The notes below the pieces were generated by a model. The model was given only the letters and a program-made list of their open reading frames with translations. It was not told the origin of the DNA and did no database searches. From Chloroflexota bacterium (lineage in GTDB: Bacteria > Chloroflexota > Limnocylindria > Limnocylindrales > CSP1-4), in contig PMKN01000064.1 in the NCBI GenBank assembly GCA_003158675.1, positions 1 to 58,884 on the forward strand: a stretch of 58,884 nt of DNA, given 5' to 3'. The position numbers and the translations under genes were made by a program. Shown here in pieces: positions 964 through 10,831 of the stretch. The first letter of the stretch is position 1. The number at the start of each line of letters is the position of its first letter.

Positions 964-1521
964 TCAGCGTACGGCGCGCTCCAGGGCCAGCGTCTGCATA
1001 GCCAGGATGGTCATTGCGTCGGCGATCTCGCCGTTCGCGATCATCGCCATGACTTCGTCGAAGGCTACCCAACGCACTTGCAGTCTCTCCGTGCCTTCGG
1101 GCGAGGCCGGGCCCGCTTCCAGACCGGTGGCCACGAACAGGATCGTCACTTCGTCCGAGATTGAGTTGGACAGCTCGGCGCGGCACAGCTCGCGCCACTC
1201 TCCGCCGGAGTAGCCGGTTTCCTCGACGAGTTCGCGACGTGCCGCCGCCTCGGGGAACTCGTCGAAATCGCCGCCCCCCTCGGGGATCTCCCACGAGTAG
1301 TGGTTCATGGTGTAACGGAACTGCCCAACCAGCAGGACCCGGTCCGTCCCGGTGTCGAGCGGCACGACGCCGATGGCCAGGTGCCGGAAGTGGACGACGC
1401 CGTAGATGCCGGGCTTGCCGTCAGGTCGAACCACGTCGTCGTGGAGGATCTCGATCCACGGGTTCTCGTACGCGACGCGTCGCGACACGCGCTGCCAGGG
1501 GTTGCCTTCGATCGTACTCAC
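964..1521 (-). CDS. NUDIX hydrolase (ADP-ribose pyrophosphatase-like)
   Basis: Nudix box GGGDFDEFPEAAARRELVEETG; YENPWI and EIPEG motifs; start GTG 1521 lies 7 nt after a TACGAT -10. Confidence 0.88.
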   Translation of the reverse strand: MSTIEGNPWQRVSRRVAYENPWIEILHDDVVRPDGKPGIYGVVHFRHLAIGVVPLDTGTDRVLLVGQFRYTMNHYSWEIPEGGGDFDEFPEAAARRELVEETGYSGGEWRELCRAELSNSISDEVTILFVATGLEAGPASPEGTERLQVRWVAFDEVMAMIANGEIADAMTILAMQTLALERAVR

Positions 1522-1653
1522 GAGGCCAATCGTAGCGCCGGGGAGCCGACGAGGGGGCGGCCCGAGGACCGATGGAACCGCTCGGGCGCGCCAGGCGTCT
1601 GAGCGGTGTCCAAACGACAGCCGACCATCGCCGAAAGGCGCCAGGAGAAGATC

Positions 1654-2478
1654 ATGAACGACAGCACCAGCAACGCTCGCCAGGATCGGAGCGAGCCGGC
1701 CGCAAATGAACCATCGAGCCGGCCCGGCCCCTTCACTTTGGGCCGCATCGTGGCCGTAACGGCGGCCTTCAGTCTGCTCGTCGGCATCATGGTCGGGCCG
1801 ATAATCGCGAACCATTCCACCTCCGCCGCCGACCCGACCGGCACCGCCGTTCCGCCCGAGCACACGGTTACCGTCTCGGGATCGGGCAACGTCAGCGTCG
1901 CCCCGGACACCGCCGACGTCATGATCGGCGTCAGCGTCACGAAGACGACCGTCAAGGATGCCCGCGCGGCCGCAGCAACCTCGATGGACGCCGTTATCGC
2001 CGCAGTGAAGCAGGTCGGAGTCGCGGACAAGGACATCCTGACCACCGACATCAGCCTCAATCCGGTTTACGACTACAGCTCCAACGTTCCGCGGCTCACC
2101 GGCTACGAGTTCAGCAACAGCTTGAAGGTCACTGTGCGCGACTTGACCAAGGTTGCCGACGTGATCGACAACTCGGTCACGGCGGGCGCCACCACGATCC
2201 AGGGTGTCTCGTTCCGTTTGGACGATCCCAAGACGGTCGAGGCTCAGGCGCGCCAGCTGGCGATGACCGACGCTCGCGCCAAGGCCGACGCACTGGCACA
2301 GGCGGCGGGCGTCTCCATCAAGGGAGTCGCCTCGATCAACGAAACGACCGTGTCCTCGCCGATCACCTATTCCGCCGGGGCCATGGCGGACAAGGCTGCG
2401 GCCCAGGTTTCGACGCCGATCCAGACCGGCACGACGGACATTACGATCGAGGTCACCGTCAGCTACTTGATCGGCTGA
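1654..2478 (+). CDS. SIMPL (DUF541) domain exported/membrane-anchored protein
   Basis: N-terminal TM segment; TVTVSGSGNVSVAPDTA, LTGYEFSNSLKVTVRD, ARQLAMTDARAKADALA pattern; SD AGGAG before ATG 1654. Confidence 0.85.
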   Translation: MNDSTSNARQDRSEPAANEPSSRPGPFTLGRIVAVTAAFSLLVGIMVGPIIANHSTSAADPTGTAVPPEHTVTVSGSGNVSVAPDTADVMIGVSVTKTTVKDARAAAATSMDAVIAAVKQVGVADKDILTTDISLNPVYDYSSNVPRLTGYEFSNSLKVTVRDLTKVADVIDNSVTAGATTIQGVSFRLDDPKTVEAQARQLAMTDARAKADALAQAAGVSIKGVASINETTVSSPITYSAGAMADKAAAQVSTPIQTGTTDITIEVTVSYLIG

Positions 2479-2521
2479 TCAGCCGCATTGGGAGGGGCGG
2501 CTGGACGCCGCCGGGGGCTCA

Positions 2522-2555
2522 TCGGGGAGCGGTCGCGCAAGAGGCCGCTCCCCGA
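2522..2555 (+). terminator. GC-rich hairpin after SIMPL gene (no U-tract), possible terminator
   Basis: TCGGGGAGCGGTC / GGCCGCTCCCCGA 13-bp stem (one G-T pair). Confidence 0.4.
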
Positions 2556-2670
2556 GCCGTTGCATCCCGAAATGACTATCTAGATCGGTGCACTTTCTGC
2601 CAGCCGTCACCTCATGGCGGGACGAACGGCACGGTATCGACCACTACGGCGGCGCGATACTGTTCGAACC

Positions 2671-3108
2671 ATGCGACTTGATCTCACCAAACGCAGCGAC
2701 TACGCCATACGGGCGATGCTCGCTCTAACCAAGACGCCGGACGGTCTCCTGAGCAGCCGCAAGATCGCGGAAGAGATGAAGATCCCGCCGCGCTTCCTGC
2801 CGCAGATCATGGGCGACCTCACCCGGGCCGGCCTCGTCGAAGCCCATCCCGGCCGTTCCGGGGGGTACAAACTCGCGAAGTCGGCTTCGTCGGTGACGCT
2901 GTTGACGGTCATCGAGGCCGTCGAAGGCGATCCTCATCGCCAGATCTGCGTGATGCGCGGGACTGCGTGCGGGGCGGACGGCGAATGTGGCGTCCACGAC
3001 GTGTTCTACGCGGCCGAGAGCGCGATCCTCGAGAAGCTCAGCGGAGCCACGCTCCAGAGCATCATCGACGCGTTCCTGGCCAAGCAAGCGGTTGCCGCCA
3101 ACGCCTAG
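2671..3108 (+). CDS. Rrf2-family transcriptional regulator with Fe-S ligand motif
   Basis: MRLDLTKRSDYAIRAMLAL, GLVEAHPGRSGGYKLAK; C-X6-C-X5-C-X2-H near C-terminus. Confidence 0.9.
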   Translation: MRLDLTKRSDYAIRAMLALTKTPDGLLSSRKIAEEMKIPPRFLPQIMGDLTRAGLVEAHPGRSGGYKLAKSASSVTLLTVIEAVEGDPHRQICVMRGTACGADGECGVHDVFYAAESAILEKLSGATLQSIIDAFLAKQAVAANA

Positions 3109-3155
3109 CAACACGGCGGCGCGGCGACGCTGACACGGGAACGAGCCGCCTGCGC

Positions 3156-3737
3156 CTATCTCTTCGTCTGCCGGGCCTCCCACTCGTCGGCCAGGATGCT
3201 CATGTGGATCTCGTCCCAGTAGCGACCGTCTCGGAAGATGGCGTCGCGAGCCCGGCCCTCCTCGATGAATCCGCACCTCTCGTAGGCGCCGATCGCACGC
3301 GGATTGAATTCGAAGACGGATAGGGCCACTCGGTGAATGGCGAGCCGCGTGAAGGCGTGGGCGACCATCAGGCCGGTGGCCTCAGTCCCGTATCCGTGGC
3401 CCCAGGCGTCACGCTCGCCGATCGTGATGTGGAAGAGCGACGACCCGTTGTCTCCGTCGAGCTGGCTGAACGCACAGGTGCCGATCAGCCGATCGGTCTC
3501 GCGGATGTGGATAGCCATGGCGAGGAAGTCGGCGCCCATGATTCGGCCGTAGAAGAAGCGCTGGATCTCGTCCGGCGAAAGCGGGCCATCCTGGTAGCGG
3601 GTCAGGCGGGCGACCTCCGGATCCGAGTACCAGCGAATGAACGCTTTCAGGTTCTCGCCCCGGTGGCGTCGCAGAACGATGAGCTTGCCCGGGATTGCCT
3701 CGGGCCGCCAGGCCCCCCGTTCGGGCACGAATGTCAT
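3156..3737 (-). CDS. GNAT N-acetyltransferase (RimJ/RimL type)
   Basis: IGERDAWGHGYGTEA, LHRVAL-like IHRVALSVFEFNPRAIGAYERCGFIEEG; real start ATG 3737 inside a long shadow ORF. Confidence 0.88.
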   Translation of the reverse strand: MTFVPERGAWRPEAIPGKLIVLRRHRGENLKAFIRWYSDPEVARLTRYQDGPLSPDEIQRFFYGRIMGADFLAMAIHIRETDRLIGTCAFSQLDGDNGSSLFHITIGERDAWGHGYGTEATGLMVAHAFTRLAIHRVALSVFEFNPRAIGAYERCGFIEEGRARDAIFRDGRYWDEIHMSILADEWEARQTKR

Positions 3738-3845
3738 CGCTGTGAGCCGCCAGCGGCCGCCGCGCGGGGCACGACCGTTCGCCGCCGCGGATCGGTGGGA
3801 GATGGTCGAGCGGGCTTCACGAGGGGAAGGTATACCATCCCGCCC

Positions 3846-5603
3846 ATGCGTGGCTGGAGCGAGGTAGCCGAACGCGTCGGGGCAACTACCCGCACCTCTG
3901 AGAAGACTGCACTGCTGGCCCGATACCTTGCGCCACTCTCCGGCAGCGAACTCAGGCCGGCGGCTGTCTTCCTGACCGGGCGGCCCTTCTCCGAGTCGGA
4001 CCGCCGGACCATGGGACTGGGCTGGGCGGCGATCTCGACGGCGGTAACGAATCTGGCCGGGACCACCGCCGGAGCGCTCGGGGCGGCCTACGATCGGTCG
4101 TCGGATCTGGGTCAGGCTGTCGCCCAAGTCCTGACTCTTCGAACCGATCAGCCGGACCCGGCCAACTCCCCGGAGATCGAGGAAGTGGCTGAGGCCTACT
4201 CCGCCATCGAAGCCGCTTCCGGAGCCGCTGCCAAGGGGAAGATCTTCGGCGGCTTGCTTGCGCGCTGCGATTGCCTGACGGCCAAGTACGTCGTCAAGAT
4301 CCTGACCGGGGAGTTGCGCATCGGGCTGCGAGAGGGGCTGCTCGAGGCGGCCATCGCCGAAGCGTTCAATCGACCCTTGGCCGATGTGCGAATGGCGGAA
4401 ATGCTGACCGGCGACGCCGGCGAGACCGCGGTCCTCGCCAAAGAGGGGCGACTGGGAGAAGCGCGCCTGCGGCTCTTTCATCCCATCAAGTTCATGCTCG
4501 CGACGCCGGCCGAAGATGCGGCGGAGATCCTTTCGCGGCTGGGACCCACGGTCTGGGTGGAGGACAAGTACGACGGCATCCGCGCTCAGCTGCATCGGCG
4601 CGGCGGCGAGTCTCGCCTCTACTCGCGCGACCTCAACGACATCAGCGATCAGTTCCCGGAAATCGTCGCGGCCGCGGGGGCGATGCCTTGGGATGGCATC
4701 CTCGACGGCGAGATCCTGGCCTATGCCGACGGCCACGTTCTGCCGTTTCTCAGTTTGCAGGCGCGGCTGGGCCGAAAGGATCCCTCCGGCGCGGTACAGG
4801 CTGAGGTGCCGGTGATCTACGTGGCCTTCGATCTGCTCGCCGTCGGGCCCAGGTCCGGCGGGGGCACGGCCGCGGCGTCCGCGCCACTTGCCGCTGTCGG
4901 GCCGCTTGCCGCTGTCGAGCCGCTGCTCTCGACACCTCTCGCGGAGCGCCGCCGTCGCCTCGAGGCGCTCGAACTGCCGGTCCTCGCGGACGGCGGACGG
5001 TTCGCGCGCTCGCACCTGGTGACCGCCGATTCGGTCGAGGCGCTGGATCGCGCCTTCGGCGAGGCCAGGGCGCGCCGCAACGAAGGCCTGATGGTGAAGG
5101 ATCCGCAGAGCGGCTACTCTCCGGGCCGGCGGGGCCTCGGCTGGCTCAAGATGAAGCGGGCCCTGGCAACACTGGACTGCGTCGTGGTCGGCGTGGAAGT
5201 CGGCCATGGCAAGCGCCATGGCGTCCTGTCGGACTACACGTTCGCGGTCCGCGACGAAGCCAGCGGACGGCACGTGACCATCGGCAAGGCGTACACCGGC
5301 CTGACCGATCGGGAGATCGCCGAGATGACGGCCTGGTTCGAGGCCCACACGCTGCGCCAGGCCGGCCGCTACCGACTGGTCGAACCGACCGTGGTGGTGG
5401 AGGTCGCGTTCGACGTCATCCAGCGCTCCACGCGCCACCAATCCGGCTTCGCGCTCCGATTCCCCCGAATCGTTCGCCTGCGTCCCGACAAGAGCGCGGC
5501 CCAAATCGACTCGCTCCAGACGGTCGAGCGCCTGCACGGCGAGCTGCAGACCGGCGCCGAATACCTGGTCACCGCCGATGCCCGCAAGCCGGTCCGCGAC
5601 TGA
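3846..5603 (+). CDS. lig: ATP-dependent DNA ligase (LigB/archaeal-like, with N-terminal DNA-binding domain)
   Basis: Motif I EDKYDGIRAQLH, LDGEI, YVAFDLL, EGLMVKD, WLKMK, SGFALRFPRIVRLRPDK. Confidence 0.93.
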   Translation: MRGWSEVAERVGATTRTSEKTALLARYLAPLSGSELRPAAVFLTGRPFSESDRRTMGLGWAAISTAVTNLAGTTAGALGAAYDRSSDLGQAVAQVLTLRTDQPDPANSPEIEEVAEAYSAIEAASGAAAKGKIFGGLLARCDCLTAKYVVKILTGELRIGLREGLLEAAIAEAFNRPLADVRMAEMLTGDAGETAVLAKEGRLGEARLRLFHPIKFMLATPAEDAAEILSRLGPTVWVEDKYDGIRAQLHRRGGESRLYSRDLNDISDQFPEIVAAAGAMPWDGILDGEILAYADGHVLPFLSLQARLGRKDPSGAVQAEVPVIYVAFDLLAVGPRSGGGTAAASAPLAAVGPLAAVEPLLSTPLAERRRRLEALELPVLADGGRFARSHLVTADSVEALDRAFGEARARRNEGLMVKDPQSGYSPGRRGLGWLKMKRALATLDCVVVGVEVGHGKRHGVLSDYTFAVRDEASGRHVTIGKAYTGLTDREIAEMTAWFEAHTLRQAGRYRLVEPTVVVEVAFDVIQRSTRHQSGFALRFPRIVRLRPDKSAAQIDSLQTVERLHGELQTGAEYLVTADARKPVRD

Positions 5604-7210: not shown

Positions 7211-8455
7211 ATGGTTGGTCCGTTCATGCCCGACGACGAGAAGGTGCCCGCGATCCGCGAAGCACTGCCTGCCACGGCTGCGGGCATCTACCTGAACACG
7301 GGCTCGGCAGGGCCACTGCCGCGGGAGACGGCTCGGGCGATGGCCGAGCTGGAGGGTATCGAACTGCGCACCGGCCGGGCCGACCTGGCGTACTGGAAAG
7401 ACTCGACCGAGCGCATGAACGAGGCCCGCGCGGCCGTGGCGGCGGTCCTGGGAACGGAGCTGCGCCGGATGGCTTTGACGCACGCCACCACCGACGGCAT
7501 GAACGTCGCGACGTGGGCGGTCGACTGGCGAGCGGGAGACAGGGCGGTCACGACCTCACTAGAGCATGCCGGCGCGCTGGCGCCGCTCTGGGCGGTGCGC
7601 GATCGCCAGGGAGTGGAGCTGGCAATCGCCCATATCGGCACCGGCAGCGATCCGGCGGACGTGCTCGCGGCGCTGGATCGGGCGATTACGCCGAATACCC
7701 GGCTCGTCTCCCTGTCGCACGTCTCGTGGGCCACCGGTGCGCGCCTCCCGATCGCCGAGATCGCGGCGCTGACTCATTCGCGCGGAGCGCTCCTCGCAGT
7801 CGACGGCGCGCAGGCGGTTGGGGCGATTCCGGTGTCGGTCGAGGAATTGGGCGCGGACTTCTATGCCGTTCCCGGCCAGAAGTGGCTGCTCGGCCCGGAA
7901 GGCACGGGAGCGCTCTACTGCGCACCTTCGGTGCTGGATCGGCCGCGCCTTACATTCGCCGGCTACGCCAGCTTCGAATCGATCGATCAGACCGCCGAAG
8001 GAAAGCCCTGGCCGGATGCCCGGCGTTTCGAGGTCGCCGGTTTCCACCAGCCGTCCGTTCTCGGCTTTGCCCGAAGCACGGCCTGGCTTTCGATGTATGT
8101 CGGCCTGAACTGGATCTACGAGCGAACGGCGCGCCTGGCCGGCGAGGCCGCCGAAATGCTGGCCGAGATTCCGGGGGTGGAGGTGCTGACACCGCGCGAT
8201 CGCATGGCCGGGCTGGTGACCTTCCGTATCGCTGGCTGGGCACCGGGACCGGCGCTCCACGAACTGGCGCAGCGGACCCTCGTCATCGCCCGCACGATCC
8301 CGCCACTCAAGGCGGTCCGTATCAGCGTCGGCTTCTTCAATACGGAAGCCGAGCTCCGCCGCTTCTGCGATGGCGTGGCTCTCGTGGCGGCGCACACTCC
8401 CGAGACGATTCCGCACCGAGCTCGCATCGAGGTCCTGCGCGGGGGCATGGACTGA
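7211..8455 (+). CDS. PLP-dependent class V aminotransferase, C-S lyase type (C-DES/EgtE-like)
   Basis: YLNTGSAGP, EHAG, DGAQAVG, GQKWLLGPEGTG; no catalytic Cys in the C-terminal loop. Confidence 0.85.
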   Translation: MVGPFMPDDEKVPAIREALPATAAGIYLNTGSAGPLPRETARAMAELEGIELRTGRADLAYWKDSTERMNEARAAVAAVLGTELRRMALTHATTDGMNVATWAVDWRAGDRAVTTSLEHAGALAPLWAVRDRQGVELAIAHIGTGSDPADVLAALDRAITPNTRLVSLSHVSWATGARLPIAEIAALTHSRGALLAVDGAQAVGAIPVSVEELGADFYAVPGQKWLLGPEGTGALYCAPSVLDRPRLTFAGYASFESIDQTAEGKPWPDARRFEVAGFHQPSVLGFARSTAWLSMYVGLNWIYERTARLAGEAAEMLAEIPGVEVLTPRDRMAGLVTFRIAGWAPGPALHELAQRTLVIARTIPPLKAVRISVGFFNTEAELRRFCDGVALVAAHTPETIPHRARIEVLRGGMD

Positions 8456-8497
8456 GGTCGGCCGCCCCCGCCCCAGAGGTGTACGATCGCGGCCGGC

Positions 8498-8573
8498 GGG
8501 GGAGTAGCTCAACGGTTAGAGCATGGCTCTTATACAGCCCCGGTTGGAGGTTCGAATCCTCCCTCCCCTACCA
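8498..8573 (+). tRNA. tRNA-Ile with TAT (UAU) anticodon
   Basis: 76-nt cloverleaf: acceptor GGGGGAG/CTCCCCT, D-arm GCTC/GAGC, anticodon arm TGGCT-CTTATAC-AGCCC (anticodon 8531-8533), T-arm GGAGG-TTCGAAT-CCTCC, A73 and encoded CCA. Confidence 0.9.
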
Positions 8574-8575
8574 AC

Positions 8576-8597
8576 CCCTGTTGTATTTGCGTGGGAA
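8576..8597. repeat. Left arm of 22-bp perfect inverted repeat
   Basis: CCCTGTTGTATTTGCGTGGGAA is the exact reverse complement of 9133-9154. Confidence 0.95.
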
Positions 8598-8613
8598 GAA
8601 TCCCCCCCCGCGT

Positions 8614-9078
8614 TTAGCGGGCAGCAGCCGGGAGACTCCGGTTCGTTGCCCGTCGCGCCGTTCTGGCGGTCAGAGCGAGTCCGGCCAGCAGAAGGGCGAG
8701 CGCGCCAGGCAGCAGCAGAGGAAACCACCACCCTGGCACCTTTGGCCAGGCCAACGGTCCACCGTAGTAGGCGGATTGAAACGGCAACGTCACGCTGCAT
8801 GGAGCCTCGCCTGGGATCAACAGGGAATCGCAGTTGACCGAAGTCGTCGCGAGCAGCCACGACCAGACGAGGCTATGCCCGACGATCGCACCGGCGACGC
8901 CCAATAGTCGAGGCCGTGCAAGAGCCAGCGCGAGCACCACGAGCAGCTCAGGGACGATCAGGTCCGGATCCACAACGAGTGTGGCATACCCACCCACCAA
9001 GCCGACCAAGGCGCCGGCGATCCACGAAGCTCCAGCCCGTCGCCACGAGCGACTGCGAACGCTGACCTCGCCAGTCAT
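8614..9078 (-). CDS. Hypothetical multi-pass membrane protein (cassette cargo)
   Basis: 154 aa, several hydrophobic segments, SD GAGGGA upstream of ATG, lies wholly between the inverted repeats. Confidence 0.65.
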   Translation of the reverse strand: MTGEVSVRSRSWRRAGASWIAGALVGLVGGYATLVVDPDLIVPELLVVLALALARPRLLGVAGAIVGHSLVWSWLLATTSVNCDSLLIPGEAPCSVTLPFQSAYYGGPLAWPKVPGWWFPLLLPGALALLLAGLALTARTARRATNRSLPAAAR

Positions 9079-9132
9079 CTCGGTCCCTCAAGATGAATTG
9101 CCGCCAGCAGCTTACGCTCTGGACGCCGCGAT

Positions 9133-9154
9133 TTCCCACGCAAATACAACAGGG
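9133..9154. repeat. Right arm of 22-bp perfect inverted repeat
   Basis: TTCCCACGCAAATACAACAGGG, reverse complement of 8576-8597. Confidence 0.95.
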
Positions 9155-9407
9155 AACCCTACCAAGAACCTGACCCGGCTAGGACGCCCTGATCACGTCG
9201 CGTAGCGGCGGTGGCCACCTGGCCTGGACGCCGTCGCCGCGGCCCGATTTCGCCATTTGCCAACCGGGCTAGATCCAGACCAGCTTGCGGTCATCGGGAG
9301 AGGCAGGTTGGCTCGTCGGCCGGCTCGCGGTTCCTTTGCGAGCGTGGGCGGCCAGAACCCGGCGGCCGGGGCCGACGGAGAGCTTCGTGGGCAGGCATCA
9401 TTCGCCG

Positions 9408-10034
9408 GTGACACCGCCGCTCGCCAACGACCGCGTGCGCATTCGCCCGGCGACCGCCTCGGATCAGGCCACTCTGGTCGAGTTCCGTCTCGCCATGTTT
9501 GCCGACATGCGCAACTGCGAGCCAGGCGCGAAGACGGCGCTACTCGCCGACCTGGAGGCCTTGCGCGCGTCCAACCTGCGATGGATGGCCGAGCATTTTG
9601 GGCGCGACTTCATCGCCTGGGTTGTGGACCTGGATGGCCGGACGGTGGCCAGCGCCGGCCTGCTGTGGTTCGCCCATCCGCCAGGGCCTCGCAACCCGGG
9701 AGGCCGGGAGGCCTACATCCTCAACGTCTACACGAGGCCGGAAGCGCGCCGCATGGGACTGGCCCGAGCGCTCATGGAACGGGTGGTCGAGGAGGCCCGC
9801 GCCGCGGATGTGCGCCGGATCTGGCTTCGAGCCAGCGCCGACGGTCGGCCGCTCTACGAGGCGATCGGCTTCGCTGTGGGCAACTACCTCGAGCTCACCT
9901 GCGACTGGCGAGCCGCCCGCGGCAACCCCGACCCACCCAACCGGCTACGCCGCAGGCGACCTGCGGCCACAGACTCACGGCCGGCGACCCGGGTCGGCTC
10001 GGCAACCGGTAATGGCTCCTTGCGGCTACCCTGA
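9408..10034 (+). CDS. GNAT N-acetyltransferase (start uncertain, GTG 9408 chosen)
   Basis: VRIRPAT, YILNVYTRPEARRMGLARALM, RPLYEAIGF. Confidence 0.8.
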   Translation: MTPPLANDRVRIRPATASDQATLVEFRLAMFADMRNCEPGAKTALLADLEALRASNLRWMAEHFGRDFIAWVVDLDGRTVASAGLLWFAHPPGPRNPGGREAYILNVYTRPEARRMGLARALMERVVEEARAADVRRIWLRASADGRPLYEAIGFAVGNYLELTCDWRAARGNPDPPNRLRRRRPAATDSRPATRVGSATGNGSLRLP

Positions 10035-10039
10035 GCGCG

Positions 10040-10831
10040 ATGGCAGCCAAAGTCCGGGTTCTAGGGTTCCCGATCACGGTGGGTTGGGCGTTTCCGGCGT
10101 TCTTGACGTTCCTCGGGTACATCTCCGATCTGACGGGCATCGAGCTGGTCGTCTGGGTCATCTTCGGGACCTTCGCCATCCTGGTCCACGAGCTCGGGCA
10201 TGCCCTGGCTTTCAGGCGCTACGGGCTGGAATCGTCGATCGCGTTCTGGGGGCTCGGTGGCGTCACGATCCCCGACGATCAGCTGGGCGCGGCCAGGTTG
10301 CCCGATCGAGATTGGCTGGTCGTGTCGCTGGCGGGACCCGGAGTGGGCCTCGTTCTCGGCGCAATCGGGCTGGTGGTTGAGCACGTGGTGGCGGGTCAGG
10401 GCCCCGAGATTCGTTCGGCTGCCAGCACCTGGACCTTCGTCAATCTGGGCTGGGGCGTCTTCAACCTGCTCCCGATCAGCGGGCTCGACGGCGGCAGCGC
10501 GGTGGTACACCTGCTGCGGCTCGCCTTCGGGCGGCGAGGCCAGTTGCTCGCTCTGGCGGCGAGCATCGCGTTCAGTGCTGCGGTGGCCGCCCTGGCCTTC
10601 GCCAATCGCTACACCTTCGTGGCTCTGATGGCGGTCCTCTTCGGCCTGGCAAATCCTTACCAGTATCGAGCCCTATTCGACGGTCTCTTCCCCGGACGGG
10701 CAATACGCCGCAGGCAGCGCGAGGTGGAGCTCGACGCCGAACTGCAGCGGCGACGGGCGCTGAACGAGGCGGACGAGGTGCCGGCCTCCAGCCTGCTCGG
10801 CGGACGGCGGGATTTGCCGCCGCAAGCGTGA
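10040..10831 (+). CDS. Site-2 protease family (M50) membrane metalloprotease
   Basis: HELGH zinc motif, SLAGP, FNLLPISGLDGG. Confidence 0.88.
   Translation: MAAKVRVLGFPITVGWAFPAFLTFLGYISDLTGIELVVWVIFGTFAILVHELGHALAFRRYGLESSIAFWGLGGVTIPDDQLGAARLPDRDWLVVSLAGPGVGLVLGAIGLVVEHVVAGQGPEIRSAASTWTFVNLGWGVFNLLPISGLDGGSAVVHLLRLAFGRRGQLLALAASIAFSAAVAALAFANRYTFVALMAVLFGLANPYQYRALFDGLFPGRAIRRRQREVELDAELQRRRALNEADEVPASSLLGGRRDLPPQA

What the first reader, a model, noticed from the sequence alone, without database searches (positions are those of the whole stretch)
8566..9165. Integrase-less 591-bp cassette in the tRNA 3' end whose excised junction would be a 22-bp perfect palindrome
Seen: the order is tRNA end CCCTACCAA (8566-8574), IR-L (8576-8597), one membrane-protein gene with its own SD, IR-R (9133-9154), then CCCTACCAA again (9157-9165). 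Recombination across the 9-bp direct repeat would give a 591-bp circle. Its junction would be IR-R, a 12-nt core containing the tRNA end, then IR-L: a 22-bp stem around the crossover. Known: tRNA 3'-end duplication marks integrase-mediated islands. No integrase or transposase is in the window. Inference: a minimal single-gene cassette or satellite mobilised in trans, or a collapsed island. The IRs could also allow inversion.
Basis: partly seen in the sequence, partly recalled or inferred. Interest (0 to 1): 0.8.

Follow-up and report, generated by a model that had tools for sequence, protein, structure and literature searches.

The report
Transposase-less cassette behind tRNA-Ile gene
The small one-gene unit behind the tRNA-Ile gene is a transposase-less copy of a jumping gene family, apparently undescribed, that inserts exactly at the 3' end of tRNA genes in soil and peat Chloroflexota; no integrase is involved.

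Summary
tRNA-Ile(TAT) ends at 8573. A perfect 22-nt inverted repeat (8576-8597 / 9133-9154) brackets one 154-aa membrane-protein gene. CCCTACCAA is repeated at 8566-8574 and 9157-9165.

It is not an integrase island. The 22-mer is the terminal inverted repeat of an insertion-sequence family in Limnocylindria-type Chloroflexota MAGs. Full-length copies are 2.2-2.4 kb and carry one ~715-aa protein: conserved D-D-E triad, best fold match the IS256-family ISCth4 transposase, two C-terminal DUF4379 zinc ribbons. One metagenome copy (L206) has the window's exact 22-mer at both ends and an intact transposase frame.

About 80% of 93 distinct junctions lie at a tRNA 3' end, right after CCA. The tRNA's last 8 nt are duplicated as a target-site duplication, and at least ten different tRNAs are hit.

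Other members are 93-850-bp deletion derivatives and cassettes with other cargo. The same 154-aa cassette sits at tRNA-Arg(TCT) and other sites elsewhere, and inside an IS21.

The window element is therefore a mobile insertion cassette that needs a transposase in trans. Its own 82%-complete MAG has none.

Novelty: new variant of a known kind. Interest is moderate.

The parts
8498..8573 (+). tRNA-Ile(TAT) gene with encoded CCA. This is the target; the insertion leaves it intact.
   Evidence: ARAGORN; Rfam RF00005, 67.2 bits.
8566..8573 (+). Left copy of the target-site duplication, CCCTACCA: the last 8 nt of the tRNA. The literal direct repeat is 9 nt, 8566-8574.
   Evidence: The family-wide 8-nt duplication comes from 20 paired elements.
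8574..8597 (+). tRNA-proximal terminal inverted repeat: the perfect 22-mer CCCTGTTGTATTTGCGTGGGAA (8576-8597) plus two outer bases, AC.
   Evidence: The identical 22-mer is at both ends of the autonomous copy L206. The outer dinucleotide is the same at both ends in 13 of 20 family pairs.
8614..9078 (-). Passenger gene: 154-aa predicted multi-pass membrane protein with two conserved Cys. Function unknown.
   Evidence: ORF list. 36 close homologue clusters, all unnamed. dN/dS 0.33-0.59. No Pfam, NCBIfam, PADLOC or PHROG family.
9133..9156 (-). tRNA-distal terminal inverted repeat: perfect 22-mer 9133-9154 plus two outer bases, AA on the + strand. It lies 54 nt upstream of the passenger gene's start.
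9157..9164 (+). Right copy of the target-site duplication, CCCTACCA. The literal 9-nt repeat is 9157-9165.

Best explanation
Window 8574-9156 is a non-autonomous, cargo-carrying derivative (a mobile insertion cassette) of an insertion-sequence family found in Limnocylindria-type Chloroflexota. The autonomous elements are 2.2-2.4 kb. They are bounded by the same ~24-bp terminal inverted repeats and encode one ~715-aa DDE transposase of the IS256/Mutator superfamily, with two C-terminal DUF4379 zinc ribbons. Shown: the family's ends are joined to DNA immediately after the CCA of tRNA genes, so the tRNA stays intact. The tRNA's last 8 nt are duplicated on the far side of the element. Here the same two ends enclose only a 154-aa membrane-protein gene. 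The unit was therefore placed behind tRNA-Ile(TAT) by a transposase acting in trans. It can move again only if such an enzyme is present, and none was found in this 82%-complete assembly. Inferred, not shown: transposition is copy-out/paste-in through a circle with abutted ends, as in the IS256 family; and target choice is made by the transposase itself, perhaps through its zinc-ribbon domains reading the conserved T-arm/acceptor DNA.
For: (1) The 22-mer recurs in relatives as inverted pairs 2.2-2.4 kb apart. Genome G057 has 8 copies, several at contig ends. Each pair encloses one long ORF, intact in L057, L058, L060 and L206 and frameshifted in others. (2) L206 has the window's exact 22-mer at both ends, is 2,324 bp long, has an open 726-codon frame and lies at tRNA-Ala(CGC). 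(3) Transposase nature: D180, D254 and E387 are invariant in 39 sequences. The AlphaFold model has pLDDT 75.6. The top Foldseek PDB matches are ISCth4 (IS256 family), E 6e-8, probability 1.0, followed by Hermes, P element, Mos1 and retroviral integrases. The core profile finds 553 clusters. Members P0168 and P0282 pass Pfam's own thresholds for Transposase_mut and/or MULE. (4) Geometry: of 20 paired elements, 13 have a perfect 8-nt duplication of the tRNA end. Targets are Ile-TAT, Pro-TGG, Gly-CCC/TCC, Arg-TCT/CCG, Lys-CTT, Asn-GTT, Cys-GCA and Ala-CGC. 74 of 93 distinct junctions carry the tRNA-end signature. A 189-bp copy at a non-tRNA site has a perfect 8-bp duplication. (5) Deletion derivatives of 93, 188, 340 and 850 bp exist. 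The 340- and 850-bp ones still hold transposase fragments. (6) Other cargo: a 275-aa ORF in a 1,021-bp unit at tRNA-Pro, and a lipoprotein-like ORF in a 668-bp unit at tRNA-Asn. (7) The same 154-aa cassette lies at tRNA-Arg(TCT) in another population, seen in at least 10 metagenomes, and at further sites. (8) The tRNA-Ile of other genus members is unoccupied. Two (G008, G023) carry decayed copies of the repeat there.
Against: No transposase homologue and no other copy of the repeat were found in the window's own genome. Mobility here is therefore historical or depends on an unbinned or foreign copy. No exact empty site with the window's right flank was found in 40 relatives. The transposase itself does not reach any curated transposase model: ISL3 NF033550 scores 18 bits against a cut-off of 180, and MULE E 0.008. 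The outer two bases of the window's ends differ (AC versus TT read inward), whereas the sister cassette has AT/AT.
Confidence: 0.88

Rival explanations
1. It is a collapsed genomic island or satellite integrated by a tyrosine integrase into the tRNA 3' end. The 9-bp repeat would be the att core and the inverted repeats the recombinase-binding arms.
For: Duplication of a tRNA 3' end is typical of integrase islands (established knowledge). The predicted circle junction has the arm-core-arm layout of simple recombinase sites.
Against: Every full-length element with these ends encodes a DDE-type protein and no recombinase. The repeat is only 8 nt and changes with each of at least 10 target tRNAs. 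A non-tRNA insertion also has an 8-bp duplication. No integrase lies in the window near the site.
Confidence: 0.02
2. It is a dead relic. The cassette arrived by transposition but is now fixed in this lineage, and it is kept only because the membrane-protein gene is useful.
For: There is no transposase and no second copy in the own assembly. The same insertion is present in near-identical metagenome contigs L093 and L201. The gene is under moderate purifying selection.
Against: Both 22-mers are still perfect and the duplication is intact. An autonomous element with identical ends exists in related communities. The MAG is only 82% complete, and repeated IS copies are often lost from bins.
Confidence: 0.4
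3. The inverted repeats are a regulatory or RNA-structural feature, such as an operator pair or long-range stem serving the membrane-protein gene or the tRNA, and not the ends of a transposon.
For: One copy of the repeat lies upstream of the gene in every context, including inside IS21.
Against: The same repeat bounds unrelated cargo, transposase genes and 93-bp empty units. No Rfam family and no promoter or terminator pattern was found.
Confidence: 0.02

Closest known systems
Mobile insertion cassettes (MICs), e.g. MIC231 of IS231, and passenger-carrying transporter IS (concept as used in PMC2266710 and PMC4337579)
   Same: Two transposon ends identical to those of an autonomous IS. No transposase inside. 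One unrelated passenger gene. A flanking target-site duplication. The same unit found at several sites.
   Different: The parent IS is of a different, apparently undescribed lineage. The cassette inherits a strict target, the 3' end of tRNA genes. Trans-mobilisation has not been tested.
IS256 family / prokaryotic Mutator-like transposases (ISCth4 structures 6XG8, 6XGW, 6XGX; p-MULT survey PMC3942029)
   Same: DDE catalytic core with the same fold. Terminal repeats of about 24 bp. An 8-bp (8-9) duplication. Relatives in the same profile family pass Pfam Transposase_mut/MULE.
   Different: The element and the enzyme are almost twice as long (2.2-2.4 kb, ~715 aa). There is an N-terminal Cys/His region and two C-terminal DUF4379 zinc ribbons. 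The protein does not reach the curated IS256/ISL3 models. It inserts right after the CCA of tRNA genes, which the p-MULT survey does not mention.
Dada DNA transposons of eukaryotes (PMC3706591)
   Same: DDE transposases distantly related to IS256/MuDR that home to tRNA and snRNA genes and make short duplications.
   Different: Dada inserts inside the RNA gene and each family hits one gene type. This family inserts after the last base of the mature tRNA, keeps the gene intact and uses many tRNA species. Direct homology was not tested.
tRNA-integrating islands, prophages and casposons
   Same: They use the tRNA 3' end as a safe landing site, the tRNA end is repeated on the far side, and elements can stack in tandem behind one tRNA.
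   Different: Those elements use tyrosine/serine integrases or Cas1-type casposases, and each is tied to one tRNA, with a longer shared core or duplication (my own knowledge). Here a DDE transposase makes an 8-bp duplication at any of many tRNAs.

Membership tests
Mobile insertion cassette (non-autonomous IS derivative with cargo) | Ends identical to those of an autonomous IS | tested here: met
   L206 has the window's exact 22-mer at both ends and an intact transposase frame.
Mobile insertion cassette (non-autonomous IS derivative with cargo) | No transposase inside; the passenger gene is unrelated to transposition | tested here: met
   The only ORF of the unit is the 154-aa membrane protein. 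It has no family hits and no similarity to the transposase.
Mobile insertion cassette (non-autonomous IS derivative with cargo) | Flanking target-site duplication, and the same unit at different sites | tested here: met
   CCCTACCA is present on both sides. The same cassette lies at tRNA-Arg(TCT) and other sites.
Mobile insertion cassette (non-autonomous IS derivative with cargo) | Mobilised in trans by the parent transposase | not testable with these tools
   This needs a transposition assay. No transposase was found in the own genome.
IS256 / Mutator-superfamily DDE insertion sequences | DDE triad on an RNase H-like fold resembling IS256-family transposases | tested here: met
   D180, D254 and E387 are invariant. 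Foldseek's top hits are ISCth4, E 6e-8, probability 1.0.
IS256 / Mutator-superfamily DDE insertion sequences | Match to Pfam Transposase_mut (PF00872) or MULE (PF10551) above the curated threshold | tested here: inconclusive
   The element's own protein does not reach the threshold. P0168 (E 1.5e-62 to the core profile) and P0282 do.
IS256 / Mutator-superfamily DDE insertion sequences | Terminal inverted repeats of about 20-40 bp and an 8-9 bp duplication | tested here: met
   22-24-bp ends and an 8-bp duplication, perfect in 13 of 20 pairs.
IS256 / Mutator-superfamily DDE insertion sequences | C/DxxH motif after the second catalytic D (PMC3706591) | tested here: inconclusive
   The nearly invariant S275-R-H-H278 sits 21-24 residues after D254. 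Ser replaces Cys/Asp, and no aligned comparison with IS256 was made.
IS256 / Mutator-superfamily DDE insertion sequences | Copy-out/paste-in through a circle with abutted ends | not testable with these tools
ISL3 family | Match to NCBIfam NF033550 or Pfam PF01610 above the cut-off | tested here: not met
   18.2 bits against a cut-off of 180; PF01610 E 0.13.
Integrase-mediated tRNA island or satellite | A tyrosine or serine recombinase in the element or its full-length relatives | tested here: not met
   Full-length relatives carry a single DDE-type ORF.
Integrase-mediated tRNA island or satellite | An att core tied to one tRNA species | tested here: not met
   At least 10 tRNA species are used, each with its own 8-nt repeat. 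A non-tRNA site also shows an 8-bp duplication.

The most novel reading that the evidence does not exclude
A single ~715-aa DDE transposase places its element at one exact phosphodiester, directly after the CCA of essentially any tRNA gene. It would do so with no helper ATPase, guide RNA or separate target selector, reading the conserved T-arm/acceptor DNA (or a tRNA-gene structure) through its DUF4379 zinc ribbons. Any cargo placed between two 24-bp ends, such as the window's membrane-protein gene, would then be delivered to a harmless site present some 40 times per genome.
Probability: 0.4. Interest if true: 0.7.

Novelty: new variant of a known kind. Interest (0 to 1): 0.55.

Why it matters
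It explains an apparently integrase-less cassette as an ordinary kind of object, a mobile insertion cassette. It also exposes the parent. That parent is an abundant insertion-sequence lineage that public annotation labels only 'zinc-ribbon domain-containing protein' or 'hypothetical'. It inserts precisely after the CCA of many different tRNA genes without harming them. If one protein achieves this precision, it is a compact natural example of safe-site DNA insertion in bacteria. It would also be a bacterial counterpart of the eukaryotic Dada transposons. The family shows how small membrane and secreted-protein genes are shuttled between soil and peat Chloroflexota, on this cassette and also inside an IS21.

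Tried and rejected
Integrase or recombinase: none in the unit or in full-length relatives.

Known RNA family, promoter or terminator in 8300-9400: only the tRNA was found.

Exact empty site: the right flank (9166-9300) matched nothing in 40 relatives.

Transposase in the own genome: none at E <= 0.001. Remnants of the repeat behind the other 37 tRNAs of the genome: none, at least 10 mismatches each.

Function of the cargo: no hit in Pfam (one sub-threshold DUF4381 match, E 0.047), NCBIfam, PADLOC or PHROGs.

ISL3 membership: rejected on score.

A 9-bp duplication with 1- and 2-nt spacers was my first model. An 8-bp duplication with 24-bp ends fits the 20 pairs better.

The 33%-identical homologue in genus member G023 (L065) showed no clear terminal repeats and was not pursued.

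Literature searches found no description of this family. ISfinder could not be consulted.

One row of alignment A3 (L020) was taken in the wrong frame and should be ignored.

Full report
**Observation.** tRNA-Ile(TAT) lies at 8498-8573. It is followed by AC and then CCCTGTTGTATTTGCGTGGGAA (8576-8597). The exact reverse complement of that 22-mer lies at 9133-9154. CCCTACCAA, which holds the tRNA's last 8 nt plus one base, recurs at 9157-9165. Between the repeats there is one plausible gene, 8614-9078 on the minus strand. It encodes 154 aa and has GAGGGA 5 nt before its ATG. The 22-mer is far beyond chance: none was expected in 100 shuffles allowing up to 3 mismatches. It occurs nowhere else in the 2.78-Mb, 82%-complete assembly.

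**What the repeat is.**
- A DNA search of 40 relatives showed the same 22-mer directly behind other tRNA genes.
- A pattern search of 401 genomes of the family found it, with 0-3 mismatches, in 19 genomes of 10 genera.
- In seven genomes it forms inverted pairs 2.2-2.4 kb apart.
- In one genome (G057) there are eight copies, several at contig ends, as expected of a repeated IS.
- Pairs only 93 or 340 bp apart also occur.
- In L057, L058 and L060 the 2.2-2.4-kb units hold one open frame of 711-720 aa. Other copies are frameshifted.
- An exact-match scan of metagenome contigs found L206. It is 2,324 bp long, has the window's identical 22-mer at both ends, has an open 726-codon frame and lies behind tRNA-Ala(CGC).

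**The enzyme.**
- Curated libraries recognise only two C-terminal DUF4379 treble-clef zinc ribbons (E 1e-26 to 1e-31). There are also sub-threshold hints of ISL3 (18 bits against a cut-off of 180) and MULE.
- Public names are 'zinc-ribbon domain-containing protein' or 'hypothetical protein', from Chloroflexota and Candidatus Limnocylindrales MAGs. Many copies sit on 2.2-2.6-kb solo contigs.
- In an alignment of 39 homologues, D180, D254 and E387 are invariant. E387 sits in an S-T-G-x-x-E-G motif.
- The AlphaFold model has mean pLDDT 75.6, and above 85 across most of the core.
- The model's best PDB matches are the ISCth4 transposase of the IS256 family (E 6e-8, probability 1.0, about 370 aligned columns). 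Hermes, P element, Mos1 and retroviral integrase cores follow.
- A profile of the core alone finds 553 clusters among 1.84 billion representatives.
- Two of these relatives, P0168 and P0282, pass Pfam's own thresholds for Transposase_mut and/or MULE.
- I conclude that this is a divergent DDE transposase of the IS256/Mutator superfamily, enlarged by zinc-binding domains.

**Insertion geometry.**
- I compared the flanks of 20 distinct paired elements.
- On one side the element abuts a tRNA gene: ...CCA, two bases, then the 22-mer.
- On the other side the 22-mer is followed by two bases and then a copy of the tRNA's last 8 nt.
- The 8-nt repeat is perfect in 13 of 20 pairs. The ninth base is repeated in only 10 of 20. 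The two outer bases are the same at both ends in 13 of 20 (CC, AA, TT or AT, by subfamily).
- The simplest reading is a 24-bp terminal repeat, an 8-bp target-site duplication and insertion exactly after the CCA.
- The targets are Ile-TAT, Pro-TGG, Gly-CCC, Gly-TCC, Arg-TCT, Arg-CCG, Lys-CTT, Asn-GTT, Cys-GCA and Ala-CGC.
- Of 93 distinct end junctions in high-GC DNA, 74 carry the tRNA-end signature. Many of the remaining 19 are decayed versions of it.
- A 189-bp copy at a non-tRNA site (L183) has a perfect 8-bp duplication, CGCTGAGG. This shows that the repeat is made by staggered cutting and is not a shared att core.
- Full-length copies occur in both orientations relative to the tRNA.

**Derivatives and cargo.**
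- The 340-bp units keep a C-terminal piece of the transposase gene.
- An 850-bp unit whose intact end carries the window's exact 22-mer keeps N- and C-terminal pieces.
- Other units carry foreign genes: a 275-aa ORF in 1,021 bp behind tRNA-Pro(TGG) in G008, and a lipoprotein-like ORF in 668 bp behind tRNA-Asn.
- The window's 154-aa gene has 36 close homologue clusters (44-93% identity), all unnamed.
- dN/dS is 0.33-0.59 between contexts.
- The same 575-bp cassette, with both ends, lies behind tRNA-Arg(TCT) in a population seen in at least ten metagenomes.
- It also lies at two further sites, L207 and L210.
- In G012, G004 and related contigs, one end plus the gene sits between istB and the multi-repeat right end of an IS21-family element.
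- The gene therefore travels on two kinds of mobile DNA.

**The window's locus in relatives.** Other genus members have the aminotransferase gene followed by tRNA-Ile without the cassette. In some of them the M50 peptidase gene follows within about 70-400 nt. G008 and G023 carry decayed copies of the repeat behind tRNA-Ile. A member of another genus has a 188-bp unit behind its own tRNA-Ile(TAT). In the window's genome, 35 of 38 tRNA genes encode CCA, but only tRNA-Ile(TAT) is occupied. The genome has no transposase homologue.

**Mechanism.**
- Shown: the ends, the duplication, the target preference, the enzyme class, and the existence of an autonomous partner with identical ends.
- Inferred from the IS256 family (ISCth4 work; my own knowledge): copy-out/paste-in through a double-stranded circle with abutted ends. 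It would be made by the transposase, not by recombination across the repeat.
- Inferred and untested: the transposase itself reads the tRNA gene, possibly through the DUF4379 domains.

**Comparison and novelty.** The object is a mobile insertion cassette in the sense used for IS231/MIC231 and Tn3-type MICs (PMC2266710, PMC4337579). Its parent resembles IS256-type elements but differs in size, domain make-up and strict tRNA-end targeting. The survey of prokaryotic Mutator-like transposases does not mention tRNA at all (PMC3942029). Eukaryotic Dada transposons (PMC3706591) are the nearest functional analogue, but they insert inside the RNA gene. Full-text searches found no description of the family. 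ISfinder could not be checked. Earlier notes of this scan report other, unrelated tRNA-seeking IS lineages. Those notes are unchecked leads. They suggest that tRNA-end targeting has arisen repeatedly.

**Limits.** All related sequences are from MAGs and metagenome contigs. Some flank pairs are mismatched (L169, L206), as expected from recombination between copies or from chimeric assembly.

Noticed in passing
window 8498-8573: The occupied tRNA is tRNA-Ile with anticodon TAT, an uncommon way for bacteria to read AUA. The same tRNA species is independently occupied by a 188-bp unit in another genus (L154 410-597).
   Followed up: partly
L023 about 1090-4271 (G012:C45); also L004, L081-L092, L094-L097: An IS21-family element (istA, istB, three 13-nt repeats at each end) carries one copy of the 22-mer plus the 154-aa gene as a passenger between istB and its right end.
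   Followed up: partly
L018 3776-3810 (G008:C21); L203 315-2127; L211: Tandem stacking. After the right-hand duplication a decayed second left end follows (CCCTGTTGTTGCGTCGTT). L203 has two right ends, each followed by the same tRNA-end copy. Newer insertions appear to push older ones downstream.
   Followed up: partly
L039, L059, L103, L206 (just beyond the distal duplication); L015 (directly after tRNA-Ile): A second conserved sequence, TGTC(A/T)TGAGTCGCGACAT, follows tRNA ends or their duplicated copies at several different tRNAs. It may be the end of another tRNA-seeking element family. It is absent from the window's genome.
   Followed up: partly
L057 1553-3826 (G333:C2): A full-length element is flanked on both sides by inverted copies of the same tRNA 3' half. 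This is either two convergent tRNA genes or an assembly or rearrangement artefact.
   Followed up: no
L186 4441-5108: A 668-bp cassette behind tRNA-Asn(GTT) carries a small lipoprotein-like ORF (signal peptide with LVAGAC). This is a third cargo type, and again an envelope protein.
   Followed up: no
L020 about 2985-3100 (G015:C9): The 22-mer upstream of a 71%-identical copy of the gene is preceded by a hairpin ending in CGGGCGCGCCA. That matches the 3' end of tRNA-Arg(CCG), although no tRNA gene is present; it looks like a leftover tRNA fragment.
   Followed up: no
window 7211-8455, 9285-10034, 10040-10831: The neighbours are a class-V aminotransferase, a GNAT acetyltransferase and an M50-type peptidase. 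The GNAT gene is absent between tRNA-Ile and M50 in several relatives, so the stretch behind this tRNA is a variable spot.
   Followed up: partly
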